Shown: piece after piece, positions 15,535 through 36,274 of the stretch
Layout: the number at the start of each line of letters is the position of its first letter
How positions within the stretch are numbered: the stretch's first letter is position 1
NCBI GenBank assembly: GCA_902802945.1
Contig: CADCOC010000017.1
Coordinates: forward strand, 17,599-81,598
Length of the DNA stretch: 64,000 nt
Origin: an uncultured bacterium
GTDB taxonomy: Bacteria > Verrucomicrobiota > Kiritimatiellia > RFP12 > UBA1067
Direction of reading: 5' to 3'
Notes under the pieces: model-generated
Seen by the model: the letters and a program-made list of their open reading frames with translations, nothing else
The model's database searches: none
What the model was told of the DNA's origin: nothing
Made by a program: the position numbers and the translations under genes

Positions 15535-15610
15535 GCTCGCCTCACCATTCCGTAGGCTGAACCAGGGCTTGTGCTTACAATAAAATCGGACTGCACATCA
15601 ATGGTGTAAC

Positions 15611-15709
15611 TTCCCCAAAATCATGTGTCTTGGCGCAACTTTGGGGAAAAATACGCACAAAATACTTTCATACTTGCCCAAAGTGCTGTGGTTATGATAT
15701 ACTTTGGGC
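15611..15709 (+). promoter_or_regulatory. Two 9-bp inverted repeats sharing a CCCAAA/TTTGGG core; the second brackets an extended -10 (TGaTATACT)
   Basis: TTCCCCAAA(15611-19)...TTTGGGGAA(15640-48). GCCCAAAGT(15676-84)...ACTTTGGGC(15701-09), with TATACT at 15698-15703. AGGAG then ATG 15734 follow. Confidence 0.5.
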
Positions 15710-15733
15710 AGCTATAAACTAGGAGCTGATACG

Positions 15734-18581: not shown

Positions 18582-18634
18582 TTTGTCGAGATAACTAGCG
18601 GGCGGATCTAGCCCGTCGGCATCGGGGCGGCCTC

Positions 18635-18945
18635 ATCCAGTCAATCCCGTCGCCCAAGGCAGAACCGTTCAAAATGTGGATGGCGAAGGTTGCTACAGAA
18701 CGCCTTGACCAGATTCAAGACCCAGAACTTTCCATCCAGCAGGCATTGGCTGATTATAGACGGCTCGGATATTCAGAGAGATGGATCGCTCGACGTCTCA
18801 AGTCCATTGGCATACGCAAAGATTTGACGGACGAATGGAAAGCGCGTGGTGTTGAGGATGAACGGGAATACGCCAGCCTGACGAACACGATCTACAAGAC
18901 ATGGGCGGGCATGACAGCGGGCGAATACAAGCGCTTCAAGGGATT
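18635..18945 (+). pseudogene. Remnant of a DinD/BRO-associated-type gene (both ends missing)
   Basis: LIQSIPSPKAEPFKMWMAKVATERLDQIQDPELSIQQA...RKDLTDEWKARGV...YKRFKG matches the central region of DNA-damage-inducible protein D-like proteins as I recall them. An in-frame TAG lies upstream, and the sequence after KRFKG is unrelated. Confidence 0.55.
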
Positions 18946-19015
18946 TAGAAGTCCCAGTCGTTTTCGATGTGGCAGTCGCGAAGTCCGTCATGTACGTCGG
19001 AAAGTGAATGTTTTT

Positions 19016-19114
19016 AGGGGTCTAGGAATCGTGTAAATTCGGCTTCGGAGGGGTCTAGGAATCGTGTAAATTCGACTTGCGAGGGGTCTAGGAATCGTGA
19101 TATAATATGCGCCG
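19016..19114 (+). repeat. Three direct repeats at exact 33-bp spacing (starts 19016, 19049, 19082); the third merges into TGaTATAAT (-10 at 19101-19106)
   Basis: aggggtctaggaatcgtgtaaattcggcttcgg / aggggtctaggaatcgtgtaaattcgacttgcg / aggggtctaggaatcgtgatataat, immediately upstream of the ATPase gene at 19138. Confidence 0.9.
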
Positions 19115-19137
19115 TTCCACAGTAAAAAGGCCTTTTC

Positions 19138-20505
19138 ATGAAAAGAAAGATATACGAGCAACTTCTGAGGTGGAAAAACGAATCCGCCCCCGAGACGGCG
19201 CTGCTGATCGAGGGGGCGCGTCGTGTCGGCAAAAGCTGGATCGTCGAGGAGTTCGCCAAGTGCGAGTATCGTTCCTTTGTTCTTATCGATTTCAACAAGG
19301 TGTCCAAGGCCGTGATCGATGTTTTCAAGAACGACCTTGAGGACCTTGATGTCTTTTTCAGAAAACTCTCAGAATACTACGGCGTGCGGCTTTACGAGGG
19401 GGAGACGTTGTTCGTTTTCGACGAGGTGCAGGAATTTCCGCGGGCGAGGGCGGCGATCAAGTATCTGGTGGAGGACGGAAGGTATCATTTCATTGAGACC
19501 GGAAGTCTCATGTCGATTGCAGAGAACGTCACCGGCATCGTGATTCCGTCGGAAGAGGATTCAATCAAGATGTTTCCCCTCGACTTCGAGGAATTCCTTT
19601 GGGCCACTGGCAGGGCGGACATGGTCGAGACGATCAAGTCGCACCGGCGCGACCTTGTACCGTTCGGGGCGGTTCACCGCAAGATGATAGAGGCTTTCCG
19701 GGAATACGTGGTGGTGGGGGGCATGCCTCAGGCGGTTTCATGTTGGGCCGAGACCCATGACCTCAAGAAGGTCGAGGCGGCGAAGAAGCGAATCCTCAAG
19801 CTCTACCGAAACGACATCCGCAAGCATGCCGGCCGCTATGCCATGAAGGCCGAGGCGGTGTTTGACGAAATCCCGGCGCAGCTGCAGGAGCATGATAAGA
19901 AGTTTCGTCTTGCGGTGATCGGTGCCGATGCGAGGATGCGGGAATACGGCGACGCGTTCCTCTGGCTCAAGGATGCGATGATTGTCAATGTCGCCTACAA
20001 TTCGACAGAGCCGACGGTCGGCCTCAAGCTCAGCGCGGAATACTCGACGCTGAAGTGTTACATGGCCGACACGGGACTGCTGATTTCCCACGCCTTCGGT
20101 TCAAACCCCAAGGCGTTGGAGGAGATCGTCAGGCGTGTCATGTTCGATTCAATCTCGATTAACGAAGGCATGTTGATTGAGAATGCCGTCGCGCAGATGC
20201 TCGTGTCGCAAGGTGTTGAACTGTTTTTCTACGCGAGATACGACAAGAAGGACGCGAAGAATCGAATGGAGATCGATTTTCTCCTCCCAGACGCGCAGAT
20301 CACCCGCAAGAAGCATGTCTCTGCCGTCGAGGTAAAGAGCGAGAACGACTACACGACGTCATCCCTCGATAAATTCAGGCGGAAGTTCGGCCAGTCCATA
20401 AGCGCAGCGTACATCGTCCATCCGGGCGATATCCGCCAAAAGGACGGAATCCTCTACATGCCAATCTACATGACTCCTTGGCTTACTGGTGTGAGCCCTG
20501 CATAG
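19138..20505 (+). CDS. AAA ATPase (AAA_14-like) with C-terminal DUF4143-like PD-(D/E)XK domain
   Basis: LLIEGARRVGKSW is the Walker A. LFVFDEVQEFP is the Walker B. The C-terminus has MEIDFLLPD...VSAVEVKSEN. Paralog of 30851-32200. Confidence 0.85.
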   Translation: MKRKIYEQLLRWKNESAPETALLIEGARRVGKSWIVEEFAKCEYRSFVLIDFNKVSKAVIDVFKNDLEDLDVFFRKLSEYYGVRLYEGETLFVFDEVQEFPRARAAIKYLVEDGRYHFIETGSLMSIAENVTGIVIPSEEDSIKMFPLDFEEFLWATGRADMVETIKSHRRDLVPFGAVHRKMIEAFREYVVVGGMPQAVSCWAETHDLKKVEAAKKRILKLYRNDIRKHAGRYAMKAEAVFDEIPAQLQEHDKKFRLAVIGADARMREYGDAFLWLKDAMIVNVAYNSTEPTVGLKLSAEYSTLKCYMADTGLLISHAFGSNPKALEEIVRRVMFDSISINEGMLIENAVAQMLVSQGVELFFYARYDKKDAKNRMEIDFLLPDAQITRKKHVSAVEVKSENDYTTSSLDKFRRKFGQSISAAYIVHPGDIRQKDGILYMPIYMTPWLTGVSPA

Positions 20506-25375: not shown

Positions 25376-25495
25376 ATGTGCATATTGGATGAGATTCGTG
25401 CGAAGCGGGATGATGTATTCGCTATCGCGATACAACGCAAAGCCTGGTGGCTTTGGGGTGGCGGTTTGCATGCCCGTAGGGAGGTGGTGGCATGA
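25376..25495 (+). CDS. 39-aa leading ORF of the DUF3791/DUF3990 cassette (possibly a decayed nucleotidyltransferase N-terminus)
   Basis: MCILDEIRAKRDDVFAIAIQRKAWWLWGGGLHARREVVA. It follows TGgTACAAT (25352-25360), and its stop overlaps the next ATG (ATGA at 25492). Weak resemblance to MNT-type ...IRVFGSVARGE. Confidence 0.25.
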   Translation: MCILDEIRAKRDDVFAIAIQRKAWWLWGGGLHARREVVA

Positions 25496-25719
25496 GTAGT
25501 CATGAGCTGGACAACAGAATAGAATACATGGTGACTTGCATAGGCGACTTTGCGGCACAACATGCGATGACGCCTGCAGCCGCATACGCATTTCTTGAAA
25601 AGTACCATGGGCTTGCCTTCTTGACCGACTGCTATGACATCGAGCACACTCAGTCCATTCAAACGGCGGTTGATGACATGTCAGATGTCTGCATTAAGAA
25701 TGGGGGCGTGTTCGCATGA
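25492..25719 (+). CDS. DUF3791-like small protein
   Basis: 75 aa, IEYMVTCIGDFAAQHAMTPAAAYAFLEKYHGLAFL. ATGA-coupled to the next gene. Lower GC than the flanks. Confidence 0.7.
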   Translation: MSSHELDNRIEYMVTCIGDFAAQHAMTPAAAYAFLEKYHGLAFLTDCYDIEHTQSIQTAVDDMSDVCIKNGGVFA

Positions 25720-26216
25720 TTCTGTATCATGGCAGCAACATGGTGTTCAGGACTCCACTTCTGGCAAAATGCAGTCCACACAAGGATTTCGGACAGGGTT
25801 TCTATCTTTCCGATTCATTCGATGTTGCCCGTCGTACCGCGCTTCGTGCTGTGCGGCAACGTGGCGGCGAGCCGTTTGTTCTTGTGTTCGAGGTTGATGA
25901 GAAGAAAATGCGGCAATTGCCTTTCAAGAGGTTTGCGCAACCGGGTAATCGAGCATGGGCAAAGTTCGTACTTGCCAACCGGAATCCGGGCATGGCGGCA
26001 TCGGATCACAACCGGGACCGACGATATGGGTGGGTCGTAGGGCCTATTGCCGATGACGGGCTGGCTTTTCTCTTCAAGATGTTTGAGCGCGGGTACTACA
26101 AACTCGGAGAAGTCTTGCGAAGAATGCAGTTTAGACGGAAATTGACCACTCAGTATTCTTTTCACACGCGTTCTGCATTGGCGTTGCTTGTGTTCAAGGA
26201 GGCCCGACATGTCTGA
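25716..26216 (+). CDS. DUF3990-like protein with ART/PARP-like H-Y motifs
   Basis: MILYHGSNMVF (PARP-like hYHGS) followed by FGQGFYLSDSFDVA (GxGhY). 166 aa. Sandwiched between two DUF3791-like genes, which is the classic arrangement. Confidence 0.7.
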   Translation: MILYHGSNMVFRTPLLAKCSPHKDFGQGFYLSDSFDVARRTALRAVRQRGGEPFVLVFEVDEKKMRQLPFKRFAQPGNRAWAKFVLANRNPGMAASDHNRDRRYGWVVGPIADDGLAFLFKMFERGYYKLGEVLRRMQFRRKLTTQYSFHTRSALALLVFKEARHV

Positions 26217-26415
26217 TGTCCAAAAGCAGATGATCGAGTTTTCGACCATGGATCTGGTCAAGGCAGTGTCAACGTCTCGTAAGTTGCCGCTGGCTGAGGC
26301 CATGAAGGTTGTGTATAAATCGCCTTTCTTCCTCAAACTGCAGGACCCTGAGACCGGTCTTTACCGAGAATCGAAAGCATATCTCATACGGCGATTCAAT
26401 CAAGAATGTCAATGA
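26209..26415 (+). CDS. Second DUF3791-like small protein
   Basis: AAGGAGG 6 nt upstream. MSDVQKQMIEFSTMDLVKAVS...AEAMKVVYKSPFFLKLQDPETGLYRES. Overlaps the preceding gene by 8 nt. Confidence 0.7.
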   Translation: MSDVQKQMIEFSTMDLVKAVSTSRKLPLAEAMKVVYKSPFFLKLQDPETGLYRESKAYLIRRFNQECQ

Positions 26416-26563
26416 AAACCGATGTAGGGAGTAAAGACAAGTTTCCAATCCAATAAATTTCGCGCACATGAAAGTCGTGAGTGGCGATCCGACTCGAGCG
26501 GAGTTGCCATGTTTAAGTCGGGGAACAAAGGCCAATGTCCCTGTGAAAAGGAGCTGATGGAGC

Positions 26564-27211
26564 ATGAAAATCGAGGAACTCATTGACAGGGGCGACGAGA
26601 CGGGGCAGCGCATTCGCGAAACGCTGAACGTCCTGCTTGAATCTCCATACTTCTACAAAACGGACGACGAACGCCTGTTTCTCGTCTTGACGCGCTACAA
26701 GCGGGCGTTTGAGTCGTTCTTCGACAAGTTCTTCGGCTGGACGCTCGTGATGGACGCGAAATGCGCGCGTCTCTACAAGCCGAAATGGTTCAACGAGAAG
26801 ATCACGCTGCCCAACCGCGACATGTTCGGCTTCACGAAACGTGACGAGTGCATGGCGTTTCTGCTGCTCATCGAGTTCTTCGAACGTGAATGTCGCGAGC
26901 AGGGCGTGACGGCGGATGACCGCGAAAATCTGCGCTTCCGTTTCGGCGACTGGCTTGAATACGCGGCGGCTCGCTTCCGCGCGTTGATGCCAGATAAAGA
27001 GGAGAACTACACCGATGAGCGCGTGAGGCAGATTTTGCGCGACATCATGCCCGATCTCGTGCGGTATCGTTTTCTGCAAAAAGTGAGACCTTCCGCCGAC
27101 GACAGCGTGAGCGAGGCCGAGACGATCTTCGAGTGTCTGCCTGCCCTCTGGCACTATCAGGCCGCGCAACTCAATCAGCCGGTTGCCGTGGAGGAGGAAA
27201 GCGCATCATGA
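26564..27211 (+). CDS. Small subunit of a condensin-like system (JetB/MksE-like; DUF4194/DUF2398-type)
   Basis: 215 aa, acidic helical protein (LFLVLTRYKRAFESFFDKFFGWTLVMD...MAFLLLIEFFERE). Its stop overlaps the start of the SMC-like ATPase (ATGA at 27208). Confidence 0.6.
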   Translation: MKIEELIDRGDETGQRIRETLNVLLESPYFYKTDDERLFLVLTRYKRAFESFFDKFFGWTLVMDAKCARLYKPKWFNEKITLPNRDMFGFTKRDECMAFLLLIEFFERECREQGVTADDRENLRFRFGDWLEYAAARFRALMPDKEENYTDERVRQILRDIMPDLVRYRFLQKVRPSADDSVSEAETIFECLPALWHYQAAQLNQPVAVEEESAS

Positions 27212-30200
27212 AGCCGCGTGAGAACTATCGAATCACCGCCGTGCGGGTTGTCGAGTTCCACAACCTCGGCACCACGACCATCGAGATTCCCGAAGGCGGG
27301 CATCTGTTTCTTCTGGGCGACAACGGATCTGGCAAGACAACGATCCTTGACGCAATCCACCTGGTTCTGACCGCCGGGCGCGAGATGGAGTTCAACTCTG
27401 CCGCACGCGTTGCGGGCGCGAAGGATTCCGGCGGACGCACCATCCAAGGCATCGTGCTTCGCTACAACGCCGTCACCGGGCGTCCCATGCGCGAGACGGG
27501 CATCACCTACGCTGCGGTGGAGTTGAAGTCGGATGGTGGGCACGTCGTTTCGCTTGCCGTCGGACTTGCGGCGGACGGCATGGACGTCGCCTTCGAACGC
27601 TGGGGCGGTATTGCGTCCGTTCCTGTCGCAGATATTCCGCTTGCCGTCGAGGAAAACGGACGCCTCCGCGCCGCGACGCAGACGGAATTCAAGCGCGGCA
27701 TCACGGCCCTGACGGGCGGCAAGTACTACGGACACATCAACGACTATGCCGACGCCGTCGGGGCGCGTCTCTTCGGCGGCGAGGCGAAATACGCCGACGT
27801 CTGCAAACTCCTTCGGACGGCCAAGGCGTATCGCGAAATCGCGGCACGCGCGGCGAACTATGACGACCTTTTCCGCAAATTGCTTGAGGAACCGAGCCGC
27901 GACACGTTTGAGCCTCTCTTGAAGGGACTTCGCGAACTGGAGGAAAGTAAGGGACGCCTTGAGCAGATTGACGAACGGGCGGCCTACCTGAATGAACTCC
28001 GCCGCGAATCCGAGCGGCTGGAGAAATTGCGTTTTCATGCCGACCTTGTGGCCTGGGCTGAAGCCGATGCGAAGCGTACCGTTGCCGAGCGCGATGGAGC
28101 GACGATCGCCGAATCAGAGCAGGCGGCGCAGAAGGAACTCGCCTCGCTCGAAGGCGAGTGGGCGGCGCTGAAGGACGATGTCGCCCGCGCGCGGGAGCGG
28201 CTTTCGGATTTGCGGGCGAAAGACAAAACCGGCCTTGTTGGGCAGGAAAAGGCCTCCGTGCAGCGTCTCGCCGAGGCTGAGCGCAAACTGTCCGACGCCG
28301 AACGTGTCCTTGCTGAAGACAGGCGCTCAGCGCAAGAGGCGGAAAAGACGGCGAAGTCCGCACGCGAACATCGGGTATCGGCGTTTCGCAAACAGGCGGA
28401 CGATTTGATGTCCGCCGGCAAGACGGCGAATTTCTCGTCTGGTGGAATCGCAGATGCTCTGTATGGCGCGGATACACGGGATTTGACTGAATTGTTTGCA
28501 GAAACGCGTATCAGGGCTACGACGGAAATCAATGCGCGTTCGGACGCAGCGTTTCAAGCGCGTGCAGAAGCCGAAATTGCGCAACGCGAAACCGAGGAAC
28601 GACGCAAGGAACTTGATGCGATACGTGCACGCGGTGAGAACCTGCCGGATGTTCCCGGTTTCGCCGAGGTACGCGAGGAGGTGCGCGCGAAGATGCTGGG
28701 GGCGCGTCCGCTCTACGAACTGCTGGAGCCGGCGTCGGGATGCGACGCGCGCCATCTTGCGTTTTTGGAGCGGCTTGTCGGCGACGACTTTCTTGCGACG
28801 TGGGTCGTGCGGTCTGACGAGGCGGATCAGGTGCGCCGGATCGCGTGGTCGGTAACAACAAGCGGACAACAACAAGGTGTGTGCCCGACCGTGTCTGTGC
28901 GAGGAGAGTCGGACGATGTGTCCGTCAATGACCTTGCGCCGTGGCTGGGAACGTTCGTGTCGTTTGAGGAATCCGATGTCGAGGCGGTGCGCCTGCTCGC
29001 GCGGCATCTTGCGGCAAAGGTGGGGCCGAAGGACGGCGACTTTCTTTCGCAGAAAACATGGCTCTTCAGGGGACGCGAGGGACTCTTGGCAACCGCGAAG
29101 CCGCGTCTCATCGGCGCGAAGGCGCGTGCGGCGGAACAGGCGCGTCTAGAAAAGGCGGCCGAAGCGCGGCTCGCGGAAGCGGAACGTCAGGAGAAGGCGG
29201 CGATGAAGAAAAGCGCCACATGTGAGCAGGCGCTTGCCGCGTTGCAGACGTTCATGACGAGGCTGGAAGATGCAAGGGACGTCTCCGTACGCGAAACCTC
29301 TGCCGTGAACGCAGCCGAGGCGGAGTTGCGCCGTATTGCTGACCGGGTGTCGATTTCGGAGGCGCGCGCAGAGGAGCACCGCCATGCGGTGACTGTATGC
29401 CGTGACGAACTCGAAGACGTGCGCGTGAAGATGCGCGCGGAAGGAATTGACGGTTCGCTTGAAAAGAGAATTGCGTCTGCCGAAAAGACCGTTCGTGACA
29501 AGGAACGCGCGGCGGATGTAGCGCGGGAGAGGATCGGCGGTGTCCGCGGACGGCTCGAAGGTCTCGCGAAGGCGCGCTCGGCGCGGGAAGCTGAGGCGGT
29601 CGAGGCGGCCGCGCGTGCGTCCGACATGTTGTCCCGTTTCGCCGCGCGGATTCCAGAGGGGCAGGACGTTGCGCGGTTCGCAGCAGAGGAGTTTCCGCAA
29701 CTTGCTGTGGAGGGGGCTGACTATTCGGCGCTACGCGAAGGATTGGCGAAAGAGTCGGGTGCGGCGGAGGCGAAGATCGAACAGCGCATCCGCGACCAGA
29801 AAGGCGAGGCGTATGCGTTTTCCTTCGACCGGGCGGCGAACAGCATCACCGACCGTCGCGGCGTTTCGCTTGCTGAGGTGCTTGCGGACGAAACGCGGCG
29901 CGTGGAGGAGCTCAGGGGCGTTCTCGACAAGAAGAGCCGCGAAGTGTTCGAGCAGATATTCATGGGCGAGGTCATGCGGAGGCTCTACCTCGACCTCATG
30001 CGCATCACGGATTTGACCGGACGCATCCAGCGCCAGCTCGCTGGGCGGAAATTCGGATCGAACCGCTATGCGTTTTCCATATCGCCTATTCCAGAATACG
30101 AGGGATTCGTCCGACTCGTCCGCAAGGGTTACGCGCTCGACTCGGGCGGAGAAAAGGACGAGCTTCGGGACTACCTTGAACTGCACAGGGACGAAATCCT

Positions 30201-30705
30201 GAACGCGGACATCGACACGGTCCCCGACATCTTCGACTACCGCAAGTGGTTCCGCTTCGAGCTGAAGGTCGTGACGGAGAACGAGGAGGGACGTGTCATC
30301 GACCGCAAGGTGAAGAGCATGGGATCAGGCGGCGAACAGGCGGTGCCGAACTATCTCCTGATCCTCACCGTCGCGGAATTCCTCTTCCATGGCGGCGATG
30401 GCGTGGAACCTCCCAAGACGGCGCTCCTGCTGTTCGACGAAGCCTTCTATGGGATCGACGCGGCGCGGCGCGACCAGCTGTTGGCTTTTGCCGATGCGCT
30501 CGGACTCCAGCTTTTCGTGTCGTCTCCGGACCAGGACGGTGTGAAGCGCGAGATCAGACATTCCGTTTCGCTGATCGTGGTGAAAGATGAAAACCTTGAC
30601 GTGCACCTGACGCCTGTCGTCTGGCGCAACGTCGCCACGCAGGGTGATTTGCTTGGCGGCGCCGCGCCGGAAGTCGGCATGACGATCAAGGAGGAGACGA
30701 AATGA
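27208..30705 (+). CDS. SMC/Rad50-like ABC ATPase with long coiled coil (JetC/MksB-like; TIGR02680-type)
   Basis: Walker A LLGDNGSGKTTILDAI near the N-terminus. About 550 aa of E/A/R-rich coiled coil. C-terminal signature-like SMGSGGEQ and Walker B ALLLFDEAFYGID. Confidence 0.85.
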   Translation: MKPRENYRITAVRVVEFHNLGTTTIEIPEGGHLFLLGDNGSGKTTILDAIHLVLTAGREMEFNSAARVAGAKDSGGRTIQGIVLRYNAVTGRPMRETGITYAAVELKSDGGHVVSLAVGLAADGMDVAFERWGGIASVPVADIPLAVEENGRLRAATQTEFKRGITALTGGKYYGHINDYADAVGARLFGGEAKYADVCKLLRTAKAYREIAARAANYDDLFRKLLEEPSRDTFEPLLKGLRELEESKGRLEQIDERAAYLNELRRESERLEKLRFHADLVAWAEADAKRTVAERDGATIAESEQAAQKELASLEGEWAALKDDVARARERLSDLRAKDKTGLVGQEKASVQRLAEAERKLSDAERVLAEDRRSAQEAEKTAKSAREHRVSAFRKQADDLMSAGKTANFSSGGIADALYGADTRDLTELFAETRIRATTEINARSDAAFQARAEAEIAQRETEERRKELDAIRARGENLPDVPGFAEVREEVRAKMLGARPLYELLEPASGCDARHLAFLERLVGDDFLATWVVRSDEADQVRRIAWSVTTSGQQQGVCPTVSVRGESDDVSVNDLAPWLGTFVSFEESDVEAVRLLARHLAAKVGPKDGDFLSQKTWLFRGREGLLATAKPRLIGAKARAAEQARLEKAAEARLAEAERQEKAAMKKSATCEQALAALQTFMTRLEDARDVSVRETSAVNAAEAELRRIADRVSISEARAEEHRHAVTVCRDELEDVRVKMRAEGIDGSLEKRIASAEKTVRDKERAADVARERIGGVRGRLEGLAKARSAREAEAVEAAARASDMLSRFAARIPEGQDVARFAAEEFPQLAVEGADYSALREGLAKESGAAEAKIEQRIRDQKGEAYAFSFDRAANSITDRRGVSLAEVLADETRRVEELRGVLDKKSREVFEQIFMGEVMRRLYLDLMRITDLTGRIQRQLAGRKFGSNRYAFSISPIPEYEGFVRLVRKGYALDSGGEKDELRDYLELHRDEILNADIDTVPDIFDYRKWFRFELKVVTENEEGRVIDRKVKSMGSGGEQAVPNYLLILTVAEFLFHGGDGVEPPKTALLLFDEAFYGIDAARRDQLLAFADALGLQLFVSSPDQDGVKREIRHSVSLIVVKDENLDVHLTPVVWRNVATQGDLLGGAAPEVGMTIKEETK

Positions 30706-30751
30706 GCAGATTATTGTTGAAATCGGCAAATTTGATACAGCGTGAGACTGT

Positions 30752-30834
30752 TTCGTTCATAAAATGTGGGCCATACTGGAAAAGTTCGTTCATAAAATGT
30801 GGTGGCTGGTCATTGATTACGTTCATAAAATGTG
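30752..30834 (+). repeat. Three direct repeats (cgttcataaaatgtg core) at exact 33-bp spacing (30754, 30787, 30820); the third runs into TATTATACT (-10)
   Basis: ttcgttcataaaatgtgg x2 and acgttcataaaatgtgatattatact, followed 6 nt later by ATG 30851. Same geometry as 19016-19114, with an unrelated repeat sequence. Confidence 0.9.
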
Positions 30835-30850
30835 ATATTATACTGTCTAG

Positions 30851-32200
30851 ATGAAAAGGCAGATTATAGACAAGATGGAAGCCTGGGATGAGTCGGCGGA
30901 CAGAAAGCCGCTGATTTTGATGGGCGCGAGACAGGTTGGCAAGACTTGGCTGATGGAGGAATTTGCTCGGCGTAGGTATGTCGGCAACACGGTTGTTGTC
31001 AATTTCATGAAGAGCGAGCGACTGCGTCTGCGGTTTGAAACGACAGACCTTGATCCGAAGTCCATTATAGAGGCCATATCAATCGAGACGGGACAGAAGA
31101 TAGTTCCCGGCAAGACGCTTCTTGTGCTGGACGAGATACAAGAGTCGCCGCGCGCGTTGACTGCGCTCAAGTTCTTTAACGAGGACATGCCGGATTTGGC
31201 TGTCATGGCAGCGGGGTCGCTTTTGGGGCTTGCCGTGAACAGGAAAAAGAGGAAACGCGACGCCAATTCATTGCAGCTGGCGAAGGCGTCGTTTCCGGTA
31301 GGCAAGGTTGCGTTCCTTGACGTTCCGCCTATGACTTTTGAAGAGTTTCTCTTGGCAGTCGGCGAGGATTTGAAGTGCAACGCGCTAAAGAAATGTGACT
31401 GGAAGATGGTTGGCTTGTTCCATGACAGTTATTGCGAACTGCTCCGAAAATACTATTTCGTAGGGGGAATGCCAGGGGCTGTCCAGTCCTTTTCGGAGAA
31501 CGGGGACTTTGCGCTGGTGCGCGATGTCCACAGGACGATTCTCCGGGCGTATGACGAAGATTTTGCAAAGCATGCCGATGGCCCTCTTCTGGCAAAGATA
31601 CGGTTGCTTTGGAATTCGATACCGGCGCAGCTTGCGAAGGAGAACAAGAAGTTCGTCTATACTGCGCTGCGTCCGGGAGCCAGGGCAAGAGAGTACGAAG
31701 TCGCGCTTCAATGGCTGGAGGACGCGGGGATGATTCGAATCGTCCGCAATGTATCAACGCCTCAGCTGCCTCTTGCGGCATACGAGGAGTTCGGAGCTTT
31801 CAAGCTCTACGCGCACGACATAGGGCTAGTTGGTGCGATGGCCGGTGTCCCGCCGCAGATACTGCTTGATGGTGATAGTTTGTTTACCCATTTCAAAGGG
31901 GCGCTGACGGAGCAGTATGTACTTGAAGAATTGACAGCGTTGGGATTGTCGCCAAACTACTGGTCGCCGGACAACATAAAGGCGGAGGTGGAATTCCTTC
32001 TCCAGATCGGGACAATGATATGCCCGCTTGAGGCAAAGGCCGAAACGAACCTGCGTGCGAAGTCGCTCAAGTCATACATTGATCGGTTCAACCCGCGCAA
32101 GGCCCTGCGTGTATCGATGTCCAAGTGGTCGTCCGGCGAACGAATCGACGACTATCCGCTCTATGCGATACCAGAGGCGATAAAGGTTTTGGACCAATAG
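30851..32200 (+). CDS. AAA ATPase (AAA_14-like) with C-terminal DUF4143-like PD-(D/E)XK domain
   Basis: LILMGARQVGKTWL is the Walker A. LLVLDEIQESP is the Walker B. The C-terminus has AEVEFLLQIGTMICPLEAKAE. Lower GC than the flanking condensin-like genes. Confidence 0.85.
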   Translation: MKRQIIDKMEAWDESADRKPLILMGARQVGKTWLMEEFARRRYVGNTVVVNFMKSERLRLRFETTDLDPKSIIEAISIETGQKIVPGKTLLVLDEIQESPRALTALKFFNEDMPDLAVMAAGSLLGLAVNRKKRKRDANSLQLAKASFPVGKVAFLDVPPMTFEEFLLAVGEDLKCNALKKCDWKMVGLFHDSYCELLRKYYFVGGMPGAVQSFSENGDFALVRDVHRTILRAYDEDFAKHADGPLLAKIRLLWNSIPAQLAKENKKFVYTALRPGARAREYEVALQWLEDAGMIRIVRNVSTPQLPLAAYEEFGAFKLYAHDIGLVGAMAGVPPQILLDGDSLFTHFKGALTEQYVLEELTALGLSPNYWSPDNIKAEVEFLLQIGTMICPLEAKAETNLRAKSLKSYIDRFNPRKALRVSMSKWSSGERIDDYPLYAIPEAIKVLDQ

Positions 32201-32225
32201 AATCTAAACAGACAAAGGAGAGAAC

Positions 32226-32894
32226 ATGAACAATCAAAATCGGACGACTCAAGGTTGGGTTTACATTCTAACAAATCCGAGCTTTCGTGAAGATTGGGTG
32301 AAGATTGGGAAAAGTTCGCGCCCAGTCGATATTCGATCCAAGGAACTCGATAACACTGCAGTTCCATTGCCTTTTGAGATTTATGCGACGCTCAAAACCG
32401 CGAAGTACGAAATTGTTGAGCGGAAGATACACAAGGCCATTGACCGCCTGACCGATTTGCGGATTCGGCAGAACAGAGAGTTTTTCAACATCAAGCCCGA
32501 ACTAGCCCTTGAGATTCTAACCGATGAGGCAACATTGCTAGACGACGCAGAGATCGTGCGTTACAAAGACAATAGGCCGATTGTACACAACAGTCAAGAG
32601 GATGTGTGCGAACGGGAGCGTCCGAGGAGAGCGCGATTTAAGTTTAGCATGGTCAATATCCCAATCGGCTCAAAGCTTGTCTTTGTTCCAACAGGTGTTG
32701 AGGTCAAGGTCGCGGGTGATGATCAGATAGAGTATGAAGGAAGGATATACAAATTATCGCCTTTTGTAGGAACATTTATGCCGGAAGATCATCGAAACAC
32801 TTCTGGCGCATATCAAGGTGCAAAATACTTTTCCTACAATGGCAAGATACTGGATGACTTGCGCCGTGACATGGAGGAATCCTTCGCTGATTAG
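32226..32894 (+). CDS. GIY-YIG superfamily (T5orf172/MUG113-like) domain protein with unknown C-terminal domain
   Basis: GWVYILTNPSFREDWVKIGKSSRPVDIRSKEL...ERKIHKAI...NREFFNI is the typical T5orf172 pattern. The C-terminal ~90 aa (FKFSMVNIPIGSKLVF...IEYEGRIYKLSPFV...YFSYNGKILDDLR) are unassigned. GC looks about 45% by eye. Confidence 0.7.
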   Translation: MNNQNRTTQGWVYILTNPSFREDWVKIGKSSRPVDIRSKELDNTAVPLPFEIYATLKTAKYEIVERKIHKAIDRLTDLRIRQNREFFNIKPELALEILTDEATLLDDAEIVRYKDNRPIVHNSQEDVCERERPRRARFKFSMVNIPIGSKLVFVPTGVEVKVAGDDQIEYEGRIYKLSPFVGTFMPEDHRNTSGAYQGAKYFSYNGKILDDLRRDMEESFAD

Positions 32895-32909
32895 GCATAG
32901 GGAGAAATC

Positions 32910-33284
32910 ATGGCTGACATGTTGGTAAGATCGGAAATTGAGTTGTCCGTGCCCGTGGCGGAACGCCACATCAATGCGGCACGAGAAGCGGCATCATATC
33001 TGACGACCGACAAGTCGTCGATACAAATCGAGATAGTTGGTGAAGGCAAAAACTGGATTTACACCACGTTCCCTGTGAAACGAGCGCGTCAGGTAGATGT
33101 GTGCGACAGGATTGCGAAGGAAATGAGCATGGAAATGGAAGATTACCAGGACCAGATACTATGTTTCTTAAAATCAGAGGCTGAACAGCGTCGTGACCAG
33201 CGAAAGCTCGAGCGGGCAAAGGAGCGTCGCCGCCAAGCCAGGATGCTGCGCGAAGCGGCGAAACAAAATAAGGAAACAGAATGA
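32910..33284 (+). CDS. Hypothetical 124-aa protein with K/R/E-rich C-terminal tail
   Basis: ORF 15 nt after the preceding stop. The C-terminus is [35 protein letters not shown]. No motif recognised. Its stop overlaps the next ATG (ATGA). Confidence 0.55.
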
Positions 33285-33412
33285 TAACGAGGGAAACTCC
33301 AGACGTAACAGACGCCGTTCAAGCTTTCAAACATACAAGTACCAAAGTAAGGCGTAACGATCCGTGCCCATGTGGAAGCGGAAAGAAGTACAAGAAGTGT
33401 TGTGGCAGATAA
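33281..33412 (+). CDS. 43-aa SEC-C-motif (zinc-binding) microprotein
   Basis: [43 protein letters not shown] carries the canonical SecA C-terminal-type [14 protein letters not shown] motif. Below the ORF-track length cutoff. Confidence 0.55.
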
Positions 33413-33431
33413 GGGAGATGGAGGTGTCGAA

Positions 33432-34673
33432 ATGGGTGAGGGTCCGCTGACCAAAGACAAAATCGCCGCCGCGATTCAAAACGCGCCGGCGGTGGAGGGG
33501 GTGCTGAAGAAACTTGCGGGCAAGGTCGCGCGCGGCGTGCGGCTGCCGGCGTCATTTACCGCGAGGGGGCTTGATTACGCGGCGCAGCGCGAGCTGGAGC
33601 ACTTTCTTGGTGCCATCGGGCAACGTCAACCGGACGGTTCCTTTTACATCCAACTGCACGAGTTCCTGCGTGGCCCTGAAATGTGGCGCGAGGCGATGGA
33701 GTATTTCGGACTATTGAGAGAAAGGGATGGTGACGATGACGAGGATGTGTTTCCACGGTTGAAACTGATTGAGCCCGATCTTTCACCACTCATCGACAAG
33801 CTTGCAGCGAACGAAGAGGTTGTGCGGTTTCTCGCCCATCCAGAGAACAAAAAGGACTGGATTCGGCTCTTCCGCTCCTTTGTCGGGAGATTCGACGGCC
33901 CGGAGTGCGGACTTGTCACGACGCTTTCCCAGCTTGGCTCGGACTGGTTCGGCGACAGCAAAAAGCTGAGGAGCGGCGGGTTGCGCCGCCAGCTGGCCAT
34001 AATTGCCGCAACACTGGCCGATTCGCCCTTGGATGACGAAAGACGTGCGCTTGAGGGGGCTCTGATCGTTGACAATCCCTACACGAGTAGCGTCACGTTC
34101 TCTGCGCCAGTGCATCTGATTCTGAAGGATGGAGAGGTGCTTGATTATCCCTGTCGCTACTATGTCAGAAGAATGGCGACGCAGCTTCCGCTTGAGACGG
34201 TCCTTGAGCTTGCGGAGGTTAAATGGGCCGGTAAGGTTCGCGGCGTGACGACGAGCGAAAATGCCGCCCCCTTTGCCAACATGGTGCGGAAAGGAGACGC
34301 CTGCGTCTACACCGGCGGTTATCCGTGTCTGGCGGTCAAGATATTCCTCCATAAGCTCGGTGCGACAGGATCAGAATGCATCCATGAAGGAGACGCCGAC
34401 CTGGACGGATTCAGAATCGCGTCCGAAGTCGGCAAATGCATTGTGCTCAAGCGGGTTGTCGCGTCCGACATCCTTGAACACGCCACGCCAGATGCGGGGC
34501 GCGAATTGACATCAGACCAGTCGAAACGCGCTTGGGAGTTTCTTTCAAATCCACAGTGGAAGAACTTCCGGTTCGCGGATGATGTGAGACGGATGTTGTG
34601 TCGCGGACGTTGGATTGAGCAGGAATCGTTCGGCGCGATTATTCGCAAGTCCAAGAAGGATGCGGGACAGTGA
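33432..34673 (+). CDS. Toprim-like nuclease subunit of the condensin-like system (JetD/MksG-like; DUF2399/TIGR02679-type)
   Basis: The C-terminal domain has VTTSENAAPFANMV (Toprim Glu) and IHEGDADLDGFRIASEV (DxD), then RWIEQESF. GGAGG-like ribosome-binding site before ATG 33432. Confidence 0.7.
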   Translation: MGEGPLTKDKIAAAIQNAPAVEGVLKKLAGKVARGVRLPASFTARGLDYAAQRELEHFLGAIGQRQPDGSFYIQLHEFLRGPEMWREAMEYFGLLRERDGDDDEDVFPRLKLIEPDLSPLIDKLAANEEVVRFLAHPENKKDWIRLFRSFVGRFDGPECGLVTTLSQLGSDWFGDSKKLRSGGLRRQLAIIAATLADSPLDDERRALEGALIVDNPYTSSVTFSAPVHLILKDGEVLDYPCRYYVRRMATQLPLETVLELAEVKWAGKVRGVTTSENAAPFANMVRKGDACVYTGGYPCLAVKIFLHKLGATGSECIHEGDADLDGFRIASEVGKCIVLKRVVASDILEHATPDAGRELTSDQSKRAWEFLSNPQWKNFRFADDVRRMLCRGRWIEQESFGAIIRKSKKDAGQ

Positions 34674-36274
34674 GGCGGCGGATTGAGAGGCAGGCGGCAG
34701 ATTTGTTCGCCGAGGTTGACGGTCACGCGGGAAGTGCGGCCGGTTCGGCGTGCGCGGCGCGCCCGCCCTACCATGATGACGAGTCTGTCGGGGCCGTATC
34801 GCTGATAAGTTCCCCGCTTGTGGATGAGACGAAGGAATGGCTTTCGGCACGTGCGCTTACGCTCGGCAACATGCTTGCGAGCGAACGCGCCGTCGAGTAT
34901 GTCGCGATCCTGCGTGCGCTTGCCGCGTTTCGCGCGGAACACGAGCCGGAGCCTCTGCATGAGGACGTGGAGCGGAAAGTTTGCGGCGAAGACGCCGAGG
35001 TGTCCGCATCGGTGACATTCAAGGCAGATATCCACCAGCTGAAGGAATGGAACCTCATCACGGAGCGCATCGAGAAGGAGCGCTTGCGCGGCTATCGCGA
35101 CAACCGGCGTGCGAAATTCCGCTATCGGATGTGCGATGACGCGGCGGCGTTCGTGGAATGGCTGGCGGACCGCCATGCACACGACCTCTTGCCCGGCGGC
35201 GGGGACGAGACGGGGAATCTTCTCGACATGCAGCGGTCGATCCTCGCCGAGCTTCGGCGGATGTTGCACCGTGTCGATGCTGCGCACGTCGGCTACGAGA
35301 CGGCGGGCGACGTCCTCTTTCGTGTCGACCAGGTGTCGCGTTACGTCGATGCGACGGCGAAGACGCTTCAGGAACTCAATCTGCGGCTCCTGAGTTTCGG
35401 CATCGCCGAATTCTCCGCGGAAGAAGCAAAACCGATTGTCGATGAACTTGCGGTATTCCTTGAACGGTTCGGGAGACGCTTCGGGACGCTTCGCGAGGAC
35501 ATCCTGCGCGATGTCGAGGAGATGCGGCGCGACTGCCATGCGAAACGGTGGAAGGCGTGTGCGGAGACGTTGGCGGCGGAGACCTCGCGGTTCCGGCATA
35601 TCGCGTCCGTGAAGATCCCCGACGCGCAGCGTATTCTCGCCGACGCATCGCTCTTCTACGGAGCAGGCGGCACGCTCGTTTCGCTCATGTCGCGCATCGG
35701 CGACTCGGCGCGGAAGGTCTGGGGGAAGCTCAACGCGAAGCTGCGCGAACTGGAGCGTCGCAACCACCGCATCGAGGATGTCGGCGCGCGTCTTGCGGAA
35801 CTTGCACGGCTTGACGAAGGGAACGTGCCTCATCGTTGGCTGCAGCGGCTTCTTGAGCCTGCGGCGATGTGCGGCGACGCACAGGTGAGGCCGAATGGAG
35901 AGAAGTCAGTCGCACCGCTTCCCAAGAGATCGTCGAACGTCAAAACTCAGAAGATCATCTCTTGGATCACGCCGCGCAAGGTCGGGGAGCGTCCAGACGT
36001 CGCATCCATCGCGCAGGAACGCGCGAAGCGCCTGAGAGATTGGATGACCGCGCGCGAAATCTATCCGTCGAGCGGGACGTCCGCGCTTTCAGGAGGCACC
36101 TATTCCGAGTTTGAGGATTTCCCCAACCTGATGAACGTCATCGAGCATGTCTGGCTGGGAGGTGGCGAGAAGGCTCGGAAACTCCTTGATGTTCGCGGCA
36201 CGCCGACAGGAGAAGGCGCAAAAGTCTCAATCGACCAGGCCACGTTGGAGTTTGAAGACATCATGCTTGAATGA
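34670..36274 (+). CDS. Large non-ATPase subunit (JetA/kleisin-like; DUF2397/TIGR02677-type)
   Basis: GTG start overlapping the previous stop (GTGA). ERAVEYVAILRALAAFRAEHE and HQLKEWNLITERIEKERLRGYRDNRRAKFRYRMCDDAAAFVEWL resemble the winged-helix N-terminal region of the DUF2397 family as I recall it. Confidence 0.6.
   Translation: MRRRIERQAADLFAEVDGHAGSAAGSACAARPPYHDDESVGAVSLISSPLVDETKEWLSARALTLGNMLASERAVEYVAILRALAAFRAEHEPEPLHEDVERKVCGEDAEVSASVTFKADIHQLKEWNLITERIEKERLRGYRDNRRAKFRYRMCDDAAAFVEWLADRHAHDLLPGGGDETGNLLDMQRSILAELRRMLHRVDAAHVGYETAGDVLFRVDQVSRYVDATAKTLQELNLRLLSFGIAEFSAEEAKPIVDELAVFLERFGRRFGTLREDILRDVEEMRRDCHAKRWKACAETLAAETSRFRHIASVKIPDAQRILADASLFYGAGGTLVSLMSRIGDSARKVWGKLNAKLRELERRNHRIEDVGARLAELARLDEGNVPHRWLQRLLEPAAMCGDAQVRPNGEKSVAPLPKRSSNVKTQKIISWITPRKVGERPDVASIAQERAKRLRDWMTAREIYPSSGTSALSGGTYSEFEDFPNLMNVIEHVWLGGGEKARKLLDVRGTPTGEGAKVSIDQATLEFEDIMLE

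What the first reader, a model, noticed from the sequence alone, without database searches (positions are those of the whole stretch)
30706..33431. Low-GC four-gene cassette inserted between the SMC-like ATPase and its Toprim partner: ATPase-nuclease + GIY-YIG/T5orf172 + 124-aa protein + 43-aa SEC-C microprotein
The stretch is visibly AT-richer than both flanks, and 32226-33412 looks about 45% GC by eye.

It encodes, in order:
- an AAA_14/DUF4143-type ATPase with a PD-(D/E)XK tail and its own promoter with triple repeats;
- a T5orf172-type GIY-YIG protein with an unassigned C-terminal domain;
- a 124-aa protein with a poly-charged tail;
- an ATGA-coupled 43-aa ORF that is essentially just a SEC-C zinc motif ([14 protein letters not shown]).

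The gaps between these genes are 25, 15, -4 and 19 nt, and the last gene sits 19 nt from the Toprim gene. The cassette is therefore probably co-transcribed with the downstream half of the condensin-like system.

Inference: it is one of two things. It may be an independent, undescribed defence or selfish module that landed inside a defence operon. Or it may be an accessory sensor/effector set recruited by this Wadjet-like variant. I know of no described system with this four-gene composition.
Basis: partly seen in the sequence, partly recalled or inferred. Interest (0 to 1): 0.75.

Follow-up and report, generated by a model that had tools for sequence, protein, structure and literature searches.

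The report
Defence-gene mosaic inside a Wadjet operon
The AT-rich stretch is a real insertion between two genes of a plasmid-restriction (Wadjet-like) operon, but it is a patchwork of independently mobile candidate defence genes plus one gene remnant, not a new four-gene system.

Summary
All four ORFs, their spacings and the GC drop are real (49.8% against 60.7% for the window). Near-identical Wadjet-like operons in other Kiritimatiellae MAGs have jetC and jetD overlapping (ATGA) with nothing between them.

- The 449-aa ATPase is PADLOC candidate PDC-S01 (E 1e-160).
- The 222-aa T5orf172 protein is PDC-S57 (E 2e-69).
- The 43-aa SEC-C ORF is the remnant of a 262-aa PRiA4_ORF3+SEC-C gene that is intact in sister loci.
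- The 124-aa protein belongs to a rare family, once found fused to PRiA4_ORF3.

Outside this lineage the four genes were never found together. The same jetC|jetD slot holds at least seven other combinations (PDC-S05, GmrSD/HEC-06, PIN7, RAYT-like, S01 alone, leader only). [quoted passage not shown]

The most interesting by-product concerns the triple repeat. It is a hallmark of PDC-S01 genes. Arrays phased at 32-33 bp with an AAAA-N-GTG core precede S01 homologues in at least seven phyla (11 of 15 loci, 0 of 75 controls). I read it as the ATPase's own operator.

The parts
25492..26415 (+). Context only: a complete three-gene PDC-M13 candidate (DUF3791 75 aa, DUF3990 166 aa, 68 aa). It is a separate low-GC insertion upstream of jetB.
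   Evidence: PADLOC hits: PDC-M13A 1e-23, M13B 3e-37, M13C 3e-19. GC is 50.2%. It is absent in L021, where Peptidase_M15 is followed directly by jetB.
26564..27211 (+). jetB-like (KITE) subunit of the host Wadjet-like operon.
   Evidence: DUF2398 3.7e-9, with weak DUF4194/MksE matches. PADLOC JetB2 1.5e-9 and JetB1 7e-7.
27208..30705 (+). jetC-like SMC/ABC ATPase. Its TGA stop overlaps an ATG (ATGA) that is the original jetD start.
   Evidence: AAA_29 and SbcC_Walker_B. PADLOC JetC1 3e-40. Walker A GDNGSGKTT, Walker B LLLFDEAF and signature SGGEQ are visible in the translation.
30684..30706 (+). Left copy of the duplicated jetC-end/jetD-start junction (core GGAGGAGACGAAATGAG).
   Evidence: The empty locus L038 6004-6026 aligns to both window 30684-30706 and 33414-33436. 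Empty loci carry a single copy.
30702..30854 (+). 50-codon ORF spanning the repeat array, ATGA-coupled at both ends. Probably not a conserved protein.
   Evidence: The ORF is listed. In most other array-bearing contigs the same frame is broken by stop codons.
30752..30835 (+). Array of three direct repeats (core GTTCATAAAATGTG at 30755, 30788 and 30821) with exact 33-bp phasing. Proposed operator of PDC-S01.
   Evidence: The same array was found in 30 metagenome contigs of 36-63% GC, mostly directly upstream of PDC-S01 genes. Phased 32-33-bp arrays lie upstream of S01 homologues in 11 of 15 plasmid loci and in 0 of 75 control windows.
30813..30841 (+). Sigma-70-like promoter, TTGATT-17-TATTAT. 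The promoter-proximal repeat fills the spacer. The ATG follows 9 nt after the -10 hexamer.
   Evidence: The same geometry is seen in L053 (TTGCTG/TATAAT), L059, L068 and L069.
30851..32200 (+). PDC-S01: AAA_14 ATPase plus DUF4143 (a PD-(D/E)XK-type C-terminal domain according to the literature).
   Evidence: PADLOC PDLC04786 1e-160 over 1-442. Pfam AAA_14 plus DUF4143. Walker A GARQVGKT and Walker B LLVLDEIQ are visible in the translation. No PDB sequence relative.
32226..32894 (+). PDC-S57: T5orf172 (GIY-YIG-like) N-terminal domain plus a compact beta-rich C-terminal domain. About 80% identical to Bacteroidales proteins.
   Evidence: PADLOC PDLC05041 2e-69 covering 7-218. Pfam T5orf172. 6140 homologues. 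AF2 model and weak Foldseek hits to Slx1 and the CcrM C-terminal domain. GC is 46.0%.
32910..33284 (+). 124-aa protein of a rare family: ferredoxin-like beta-alpha-beta-beta-alpha-beta domain plus a long basic C-terminal helix. Likely former partner of the PRiA4_ORF3+SEC-C gene.
   Evidence: No Pfam or PADLOC family. 160 representatives among 1.84 billion proteins. AF2 pLDDT 87, with only generic fold matches. Adjacent to the intact 262-aa gene in L021-L026, L037 and L058. One fusion with PRiA4_ORF3, P0344.
33281..33412 (+). 43-codon remnant of a 262-aa PRiA4_ORF3+SEC-C gene. An internal deletion left the start region and the last ~37 codons.
   Evidence: Residues 7-43 match residues 226-262 of the L021 protein, 35 of 37 identical. 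DNA alignment shows about 700 nt missing. The intact gene has PRiA4_ORF3 1.6e-24 plus SEC-C.
33414..33436 (+). Right copy of the duplicated junction (core GGAGGTGTCGAAATGGG). It provides the Shine-Dalgarno sequence and ATG of jetD.
33432..34673 (+). jetD-like Toprim nuclease subunit.
   Evidence: DUF2399 1.2e-6 and JetD_C 6.9e-6. PADLOC JetD1 7e-17. E276 and the D321/D323/D325 motif are invariant in alignment A2.
34670..36274 (+). jetA-like (kleisin) subunit.
   Evidence: DUF2397 9.6e-7, 28.4 bits against a cutoff of 28.5. PADLOC JetA2 4e-5.

Best explanation
Window 30706-33431 is the filled state of a recombination-prone slot at the jetC|jetD junction of a divergent Wadjet-like operon (order jetB-jetC-jetD-jetA) in a gut/rumen Kiritimatiellae bacterium. 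The content is a mosaic of independent modules.

1. A self-contained PDC-S01 unit. This is an AAA_14 ATPase with a DUF4143 nuclease-type tail, preceded by its portable promoter, which carries 33-bp-phased repeats.
2. A solitary PDC-S57 T5orf172 gene, closely related to Bacteroidales genes.
3. A 124-aa orphan.
4. The 43-codon stump of its former neighbour, a 262-aa PRiA4_ORF3+SEC-C gene.

Shown:
- the insertion and its boundaries;
- the family identities;
- the remnant status of the 43-aa ORF;
- the lack of co-occurrence of the four genes elsewhere;
- the variable cargo in the same slot;
- the association of the repeat array with the PDC-S01 family.

Inferred:
- The modules act separately, as candidate nuclease-based defence or selfish genes, not as one machine.
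- They are carried along and exchanged by homologous recombination between the conserved jet flanks.
- The S01 promoter, probably autorepressed by S01 binding to the phased repeats, transcribes S01, S57 and the 124-aa gene, and reads through into jetD-jetA. That would restore expression of the downstream half of the split operon.
- The SEC-C stump has no function of its own.
For: Insertion. Empty loci have jetC/jetD ATGA overlap, including L038, whose JetC is 96% identical. A 23-nt junction duplication flanks the insert.

Known families. PDC-S01 1e-160 and PDC-S57 2e-69.

Remnant..

Modularity in the same slot:
- L045: leader + S01 + intact PRiA4-SEC-C, with the breakpoint exactly at the S57 ATG.
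- L021-L026: leader + (ORF6N) + 127 aa + PRiA4-SEC-C.
- L037: leader + PDC-S05 + GmrSD/HEC-06 + 124 aa + PRiA4-SEC-C.
- L040 and L029: S01 fragment + PIN7 + RAYT-like gene.
- L036 and L058: further deletion derivatives.
- L046: leader only.

Independence of the genes. S57 homologues sit alone among housekeeping genes in Bacteroidales. Homologues of the 124-aa protein sit in other defence islands without S01, S57 or SEC-C. Array + S01 units lie next to GroEL or glycosidase genes.

Foreign origin. GC is 46-53% against 57-62% in the jet genes.

Co-transcription is plausible. All genes are on one strand, the gaps are tight and there is no + strand terminator.

Precedent. [quoted passage not shown]
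Against: - No expression or phenotype data exist. PDC-S01 and PDC-S57 are unvalidated candidates (PMC12988326).
- The 43-aa ORF keeps an ATG and is identical in all ten contigs of this lineage that were scanned (L001-L010), so a residual zinc-binding peptide cannot be excluded.
- The sampled loci come from related MAGs, so the count of independent events is uncertain.
- In some strains of this lineage both jetC (frameshift) and S01 (241-nt deletion) are broken. The whole locus may therefore be decaying rather than functioning.
- Binding of S01 to the repeats is inferred from association only.
Confidence: 0.75

Rival explanations
1. The inserted genes are mainly selfish nuclease genes (homing-like T5orf172/GIY-YIG, ATPase-nuclease). 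They accumulate in a permissive 'genomic sink' and give the host no defence benefit. Wadjet merely tolerates them.
For: - S57 homologues lie singly between housekeeping genes.
- Array + S01 units are scattered at unrelated chromosomal sites.
- Deletion derivatives are frequent and jetC is broken in some strains.
- RAYT-like transposase genes share the slot.
- The sink idea is discussed in bioRxiv 10.1101/2024.01.29.577857.
Against: - The slot also holds GmrSD/HEC-06, a family with experimentally shown antiviral activity.
- Cargo in array-marked sites elsewhere is RM, Dcm-Z1 and PDC-S02.
- No target-specific homing pattern, integrase or terminal inverted repeats were seen.
Confidence: 0.17
2. 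The cassette is an accessory sensor/effector set functionally recruited by this Wadjet variant. For example, it could be a backup effector triggered when Wadjet is inhibited, as PrrC is within EcoprrI.
For: - The position is strictly between jetC and jetD, on the same strand and tightly spaced.
- The slot is filled in many related loci.
- There is a PrrC/BrxU precedent.
Against: - Operons with 96-99% identical JetB and JetC lack any insert (L038).
- The cargo differs from locus to locus, and each gene also occurs without Wadjet.
- One member is a deletion stump.
Confidence: 0.06
3. The four ORFs form one new, co-evolved four-gene defence system.
For: Operon-like spacing and ATGA coupling. No described system has this composition.
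Against: - The four genes co-occur nowhere outside one species-level lineage.
- Two members are stand-alone PADLOC single-gene families.
- The fourth ORF is a gene fragment.
Confidence: 0.02

Closest known systems
Defence genes 'embedded' within multi-gene defence operons (Hma, BREX, DISARM, type I RM; Payne et al. 2024, bioRxiv 10.1101/2024.01.29.577857). Examples are PrrC in EcoprrI and BrxU in BREX.
   Same: - Extra genes are nested between the core genes of a defence operon, on the same strand.
- The cargo differs between homologous loci.
- The cargo is rich in nuclease and ATPase candidates.
- Empty and filled versions of the host operon coexist.
   Different: - The host here is a Wadjet-like SMC system. 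The paper quantified embedding only for Hma, BREX, DISARM and RM-I, and in the passages I read Wadjet appears only in the ABC-ATPase/Toprim comparison.
- The slot is marked by a duplicated junction and by a conserved repeat-bearing leader.
- At least two further insertion points exist in the same operon: upstream of jetB, and between jetB and jetC.
PADLOC PDC-S01 (AAA_14 ATPase + DUF4143/PD-(D/E)XK), a single-gene phage-defence candidate
   Same: Full-length HMM match (1e-160) and the same domain architecture. It is a stand-alone unit.
   Different: Function is unvalidated. The phased 32-33-bp repeat array in its promoter, seen here across phyla, is not mentioned in the PDC-S01 papers I read. 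A full-text search for DUF4143 surfaced no functional study among the papers listed.
PADLOC PDC-S57 and T5orf172 (GIY-YIG-like) proteins. PD-Lambda-1 carries the same domain.
   Same: T5orf172 N-terminal domain. Full-length match to the PDC-S57 model, including the C-terminal domain.
   Different: Much shorter than PD-Lambda-1 (222 aa against about 490 aa). The match to PD-Lambda-1 is limited to the T5orf172 domain (3e-10). Activity is unknown.
Wadjet / JetABCD (types I-III)
   Same: All four subunit types are present: KITE, SMC-like ABC ATPase, Toprim nuclease and kleisin-like. ATPase and Toprim motifs are intact.
   Different: - Gene order is B-C-D-A, not A-B-C-D.
- All matches fall below the NCBIfam equivalog cut-offs.
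- JetB is a single 215-aa KITE, unlike the tandem KITE of type II (10.1101/2025.03.10.642339).
- Best PADLOC hits mix type I and type II models.
Operator or iteron arrays of autoregulated genes (direct repeats phased by whole helical turns, with one site overlapping the promoter)
   Same: 2-4 direct repeats at 32-33 bp, about three helical turns. In sigma-70-type contexts the proximal copy sits between -35 and -10.
   Different: The binding protein has not been identified. The array is conserved across phyla together with one ATPase-nuclease family. It persists as a 'leader' in front of other defence cargo after S01 is lost.

Membership tests
PADLOC PDC-S01 | Full-length match to a PDC-S01 profile | tested here: met
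   PDLC04786, E 1e-160, residues 1-442 against profile 3-431 of 439.
PADLOC PDC-S01 | AAA_14 P-loop ATPase followed by DUF4143 | tested here: met
   AAA_14 3.5e-20 (18-167) and DUF4143 1.4e-30 (236-397). Walker A GARQVGKT and Walker B LLVLDEIQ are visible in the translation.
PADLOC PDC-S01 | PD-(D/E)XK catalytic motif in the C-terminal domain | tested here: inconclusive
   An E-x-K-like 'PLEAKAE' preceded by 'AEVEFLL' is visible in the translation. No structure or profile alignment to a nuclease was made. The assignment rests on PMC12988326.
PADLOC PDC-S01 | Anti-phage or anti-plasmid activity | not testable with these tools
   The family is an unvalidated candidate.
PADLOC PDC-S57 | Full-length match to a PDC-S57 profile, including the region C-terminal to T5orf172 | tested here: met
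   PDLC05041, E 2e-69, residues 7-218 against profile 3-208 of 212. Pfam T5orf172 6e-12.
PRiA4_ORF3 + SEC-C proteins (for the 43-aa ORF) | PRiA4_ORF3 domain | tested here: not met
   The 43-aa ORF has only SEC-C. The domain is present in the intact 262-aa orthologue, 1.6e-24, and is deleted in the window.
PRiA4_ORF3 + SEC-C proteins (for the 43-aa ORF) | C-terminal SEC-C zinc motif | tested here: met
   SEC-C 6.3e-12. 35 of 37 residues are identical to the C-terminus of the L021 protein.
Wadjet (JetABCD) | All four subunit types are present in one operon | tested here: met
   Matches to JetB, JetC, JetD and JetA in Pfam and PADLOC. The matches to JetA and JetB are weak.
Wadjet (JetABCD) | Canonical order jetA-jetB-jetC-jetD and match to the TIGR02677-02680 equivalogs (type II) | tested here: not met
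   The order is B-C-[slot]-D-A. NCBIfam scores of 24-45 bits fall far below the cut-offs of 125-463.
Wadjet (JetABCD) | Intact ATPase and Toprim catalytic motifs | tested here: met
   JetC Walker A, Walker B and signature motif. JetD E276 and D321/D323/D325 are invariant in A2.
Embedded defence cargo (guilt-by-embedding sense) | Genes lie between core genes of a defence operon on the same strand, and homologous operons exist without them | tested here: met
   Same strand. Empty loci are L027, L028, L030, L038, L039 and L043. Payne et al. allowed at most 3 embedded genes per gap. Here there are 3 genes plus a remnant.
Integron-type gene cassettes or a transposon (considered) | Integrase or transposase, attC-like or terminal inverted repeats | tested here: not met
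   No recombinase gene lies in 30706-33431. No inverted copy of the repeat exists, and the inverted-repeat scan showed only short, chance-level pairs. The 23-nt flanking direct duplication remains unexplained.

The most novel reading that the evidence does not exclude
The 32-33-bp-phased direct-repeat array (core AAAA-N-GTG) is the cognate DNA site of the PDC-S01 ATPase-nuclease family across bacteria. S01 would oligomerise on it, autoregulate, and perhaps use it as a sensing or assembly platform. The array outlives S01 as a portable 'leader' that drives, and marks the left border of, swappable defence cargo in unrelated phyla: the Wadjet slot in Kiritimatiellae and an RM/PDC-S02/Dcm-Z1 hotspot in Bacteroidales-like contigs. 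If so, this would be the first mechanistic handle on one of the most abundant yet uncharacterised candidate defence families.
Probability: 0.35. Interest if true: 0.62.

Novelty: new member of a known kind. Interest (0 to 1): 0.45.

Why it matters
- It shows that 'defence-in-defence' embedding extends to a Wadjet-like SMC system. Clean empty and filled allele series define the insertion point to the base.
- It corrects a tempting over-reading. An operon-like row of four ORFs is a patchwork, and one 'microprotein' is a deletion stump.
- It gives a testable lead for PDC-S01. That family is reported as the fourth most common candidate defence in prokaryotes and the most frequent single locus in rumen genomes, yet it has no known mechanism. 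Its genes carry a conserved, phased repeat array in their promoter.
- It flags JetD as a strikingly fast-diverging subunit in these operons.

Tried and rejected
- Rfam scan of 30400-33600 at E<=1: no RNA family.
- The 50-aa ORF over the repeats as a real peptide with three SFIKCG repeats: rejected, because the frame is broken by stops in most other array-bearing contigs.
- SEC-C ORF as a regular partner of the 124-aa family: no SEC-C motif was found in any frame of L011-L020.
- Transposon-like ends: no inverted copies of the repeat anywhere.
- Array in viral contigs: none.
- PDB sequence relatives of S01 and S57: none.
- Foldseek for the 124-aa model: only generic ferredoxin-like (ACT/PII/RRM) folds, TM<=0.45.
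- Foldseek for S57: only weak GIY-YIG (Slx1) and CcrM C-terminal-domain similarities, E>=0.04. I treat these as hints only.
- PDC-S12 as the identity of the 262-aa gene: the match is confined to the SEC-C tail.
- A literature search for DUF4143/AAA_14 surfaced no functional study among the 25 papers listed.
- A search for embedding in Wadjet found no such report. I opened only two of the returned papers.


Full report
**1. What is there**

- 30851-32200, 449 aa: AAA_14 plus DUF4143.
- 32226-32894, 222 aa: T5orf172 at residues 10-98, with the C-terminal half unassigned by Pfam.
- 32910-33284, 124 aa: no family.
- 33281-33412, 43 aa: SEC-C motif.

The gaps are 25, 15 and -4 nt, with 19 nt to jetD.

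GC of 30706-33431 is 49.8%. The window as a whole is 60.7% and the flanking jet genes are 57-62%. This is the lowest value of any equally long window in the 64 kb.

The three 18-nt repeats sit at 30752, 30785 and 30818 with exact 33-nt spacing. A promoter-like TTGATT-17-TATTAT lies at 30813-30841.

No terminator-like site lies on the + strand inside the stretch.

The exact 124-aa protein with the same neighbours occurs on 19 contigs from independent gut and rumen metagenomes. The arrangement is therefore not an assembly artefact. Named homologues place the organism in the Kiritimatiellae.

**2. The host operon**

The flanks match the four Wadjet subunit types.
- JetB-like KITE, 26564-27211.
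- JetC-like SMC/ABC ATPase, 27208-30705.
- JetD-like Toprim, 33432-34673.
- JetA-like kleisin, 34670-36274.

The ATPase and Toprim motifs are intact.

The gene order is B-C-D-A. All matches lie far below the NCBIfam type II cut-offs. JetB is a single 215-aa KITE, unlike the tandem KITE of type II (10.1101/2025.03.10.642339). I call it a divergent, unclassified Wadjet-like operon.

**3. It is an insertion, with base-level boundaries**

A scan of species-representative genomes with a JetD profile gave 24 loci.

In L027, L028, L030, L038, L039 and L043 the jetC stop overlaps the jetD start ('GAAATGA') with nothing in between. L038 has JetB 99%, JetC 96% and JetA 94% identical to the window's.

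L038 positions 6004-6026 align to both window 30684-30706 and 33414-33436. A 23-nt copy of the junction, carrying the Shine-Dalgarno sequence and ATG, therefore flanks the insert. The ATG at 30702 is the orphaned original jetD start.

**4. The four genes are not one system**

*PADLOC identities.* The ATPase is PDC-S01 (1e-160, full length). The T5orf172 protein is PDC-S57 (2e-69, full length, including the 'unassigned' C-terminal domain). Both are single-gene phage-defence candidates. [quoted passage not shown] PDC-S01 is described as an ATPase fused to a PD-(D/E)XK domain, the fourth most common candidate defence in prokaryotes, and unvalidated (PMC12988326). It is the most frequent single locus in rumen genomes (PMC13356809).

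*The 43-aa ORF is a remnant.* Sister loci L021-L026 carry a 127-aa homologue that is 95% identical to the 124-aa protein. There it is followed by a 262-aa PRiA4_ORF3+SEC-C gene that ends 19 nt before jetD.
- The window lacks about 700 nt of that gene.
- Residues 7-43 of the ORF equal residues 226-262 of the 262-aa protein, 35 of 37 identical.
- The first codons (ATGATAACGAGG) resemble the intact gene's start (ATGATGAGAGAAG). The event looks like an internal deletion, plus a small deletion that created the ATGA overlap.

*The same slot holds other combinations.*
- L045: leader + S01 + intact PRiA4-SEC-C. Homology to the window ends exactly at the S57 ATG.
- L021-L026: leader + (ORF6N) + 127 aa + PRiA4-SEC-C.
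- L037: leader + PDC-S05 (4e-96) + GmrSD/HEC-06 + 124 aa + PRiA4-SEC-C.
- L040, L029 and L077: S01 or an S01 fragment + PIN7 protein + RAYT-like gene.
- L036 and L058: further deletion derivatives.
- L041: S57 directly upstream of jetD, without S01.
- L046: leader only.

*Window against L021.* The blocks 26546-30837, 32907-33280 and 33297-33769 are shared. Only 30838-32906 (S01 + S57) is window-specific.

*Each gene also lives alone.*
- S57 has 6140 homologues, about 80% identical in Bacteroidales. There it lies singly between housekeeping genes.
- Divergent homologues of the 124-aa protein lie in other defence islands: type I RM with a PtuA-like ATPase, Dcm with HNH, and a SLFN/HATPase_c_4 context. 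None has S01, S57 or a SEC-C ORF nearby.

**5. The 124-aa protein**

The family is rare. A profile search found 160 representatives among 1.84 billion proteins.

The AF2 model (pLDDT 87) is a ferredoxin-like beta-alpha-beta-beta-alpha-beta domain plus a long basic helix. It gives only generic fold matches.

It is adjacent to PRiA4-SEC-C in several slot types. One representative (P0344) fuses the two domains, and another (P0313) fuses it to a LexA-type wHTH. I infer that it once formed a two-gene module with the 262-aa gene. In the window that module is broken.

**6. PDC-S57 structure**

The AF2 model (pLDDT 78) shows a GIY-YIG-like N-terminal domain, a disordered linker (residues 121-133) and a confident beta-rich C-terminal domain.

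Foldseek gives weak similarity to Slx1 and HIGLE for the N-terminal domain. For the C-terminal domain it gives weak similarity to the CcrM C-terminal DNA-binding domain and the MPND-DNA complex. These are hints, not assignments.

**7. The triple repeat**

*Distribution of the exact motif.* An exact two-copy pattern (GTTCATAAAATGTG, 19 nt, same motif again) found 30 metagenome contigs with GC of 36-63%.
- Copies number 2-4, always direct, always 33 nt apart, with no inverted copy.
- In 14 contigs a PDC-S01 gene begins 11-42 nt after the start of the last copy.
- In three contigs (L058, L064, L076) only an S01 remnant follows the array.
- In one more (L067) the contig ends 40 codons into an S01 gene.
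- None of these counts needs jet genes nearby.
- The S01 proteins fall into two clades only about 30% identical to each other. Members tested from both clades match PADLOC model PDLC04786.
- The frame over the repeats is broken by stops in most contigs. The 50-aa ORF at 30702-30854 is therefore probably not a conserved protein.

*Promoter geometry.* In sigma-70-type contexts the proximal copy fills the 17-nt spacer between -35 and -10. This holds for the window, L053, L059, L068 and L069. That is the classical operator position.

*Family-wide test.* I examined the 200 nt upstream of 15 plasmid-borne S01 homologues (26-44% identical) from Bacteroidota, Pseudomonadota, Actinomycetota, Fusobacteriota, Bacillota and Chlamydiota.
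- In 11 of the 15 the strongest direct repeat lies at offset 32 or 33.
- In 12 of the 15 at least 12 of 14 bases match at offset 32 or 33.
- None of 75 intragenic control windows shows this.
- The binomial p is about 1e-12.
- The motifs differ but share a core near AAAA-N-GTG(T).

*Arrays without S01.* The array also persists where S01 is absent.
- It sits before ORF6N and other cargo in the Wadjet slot (L021).
- In Bacteroidales-like contigs it sits before a type I RM (L072), a Dcm + HATPase_c_3 + Z1 cluster (L061) and PDC-S02 (L074).

My reading, which is inference: S01 binds its own phased array and autoregulates. After S01 loss the array remains as a leader for whatever cargo follows.

**8. 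How it most likely works**

- Shown: the slot, its boundaries, the module identities and their independence.
- Inferred: each module acts on its own as a candidate nuclease-type defence or selfish gene.
- Inferred: cargo is exchanged by recombination between the conserved jet flanks, with breakpoints often at start codons.
- Inferred: the S01 promoter reads through into jetD-jetA.
- The SEC-C stump is most likely non-functional.

**9. Caveats**

- There are no expression or phenotype data.
- The PDC families are unvalidated.
- In some strains of this lineage jetC is frameshifted and S01 carries a 241-nt deletion. Parts of the locus may therefore be decaying.

**10. Novelty**

[quoted passage not shown] In the literature I searched and read, I found no report of embedding in Wadjet. 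This is a new instance of a known kind.

The array associated with PDC-S01 is the part a specialist might not expect. I found no mention of it in the papers I read.

Noticed in passing
window 30752-30835; L051-L080; L090-L104: Phased direct-repeat arrays (32-33 bp, core about AAAA-N-GTG) lie directly upstream of PDC-S01 (AAA_14/DUF4143) genes in at least seven phyla. 11 of 15 plasmid-borne homologues have them, against 0 of 75 control windows. The exact window motif occurs in 30 metagenome contigs of 36-63% GC.
   Followed up: partly
L055, L061, L071, L072, L074 (metagenome contigs, Bacteroidales-like): The same array is followed by a conserved stretch of about 60 nt. Together they mark the left border of a site with different defence cargo in each contig: type I RM, Dcm + HATPase_c_3 + Z1, or PDC-S02/DUF1016. 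The site lies downstream of a VapC-like PIN gene. It looks like a second array-marked defence hotspot in another phylum.
   Followed up: partly
window 25492-26415: A complete three-gene PDC-M13 candidate (DUF3791, DUF3990, 68 aa) with 50% GC lies between Peptidase_M15 and jetB. It is absent in L021-L024, so it is a second, separate insertion next to the same operon.
   Followed up: partly
window 33432-34673 (especially 33770-34604); L038, L045, L040, L043: JetD is far more divergent than its partners. In L038 and L045, JetB is 99%, JetC 96% and JetA 93-94% identical to the window's, but JetD only 58%. Against L021 the flanks are about 90% identical at DNA level while the central part of jetD gives no blastn match. 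This suggests allele replacement or diversifying selection on the nuclease subunit.
   Followed up: no
L043 2337-4248; L065 723-2556: A second insertion point exists between jetB and jetC. L043 carries an HTH gene plus a PDC-S05 (ORF6N) gene there. L065 has a gap of about 1.8 kb at the same place.
   Followed up: partly
L031-L035; L034 13493-21224: In another Kiritimatiellae group the order is jetD-jetA-jetB. No JetC homologue was detected by tblastn within 7.7 kb downstream in L034. The operon may be permuted or incomplete.
   Followed up: no
L002, L004 (same lineage as the window): Strain-level decay: jetC is split into 471-aa and 670-aa ORFs, and PDC-S01 is truncated to 325 aa by a 241-nt deletion corresponding to window 31823-32063.
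   Followed up: partly
P0344, P0313, P0372 (representatives of the 124-aa family): Domain fusions of the 124-aa domain with PRiA4_ORF3 (P0344), a LexA-type wHTH (P0313) and an integrase SAM-like domain (P0372). The first supports a functional link to the 262-aa PRiA4-SEC-C neighbour.
   Followed up: partly
L040 9224-9892; L047 9371-9937; L029 2253-2486: An IS200/RAYT-like gene occupies the slot just upstream of jetD in some loci. It has no Pfam hit at E<=0.001. The call rests on its sequence motif (HLHLIV).
   Followed up: no
window 15501-16500 and 18501-20000: Two further low-GC patches (51-54%) in the window. I did not examine them.
   Followed up: no
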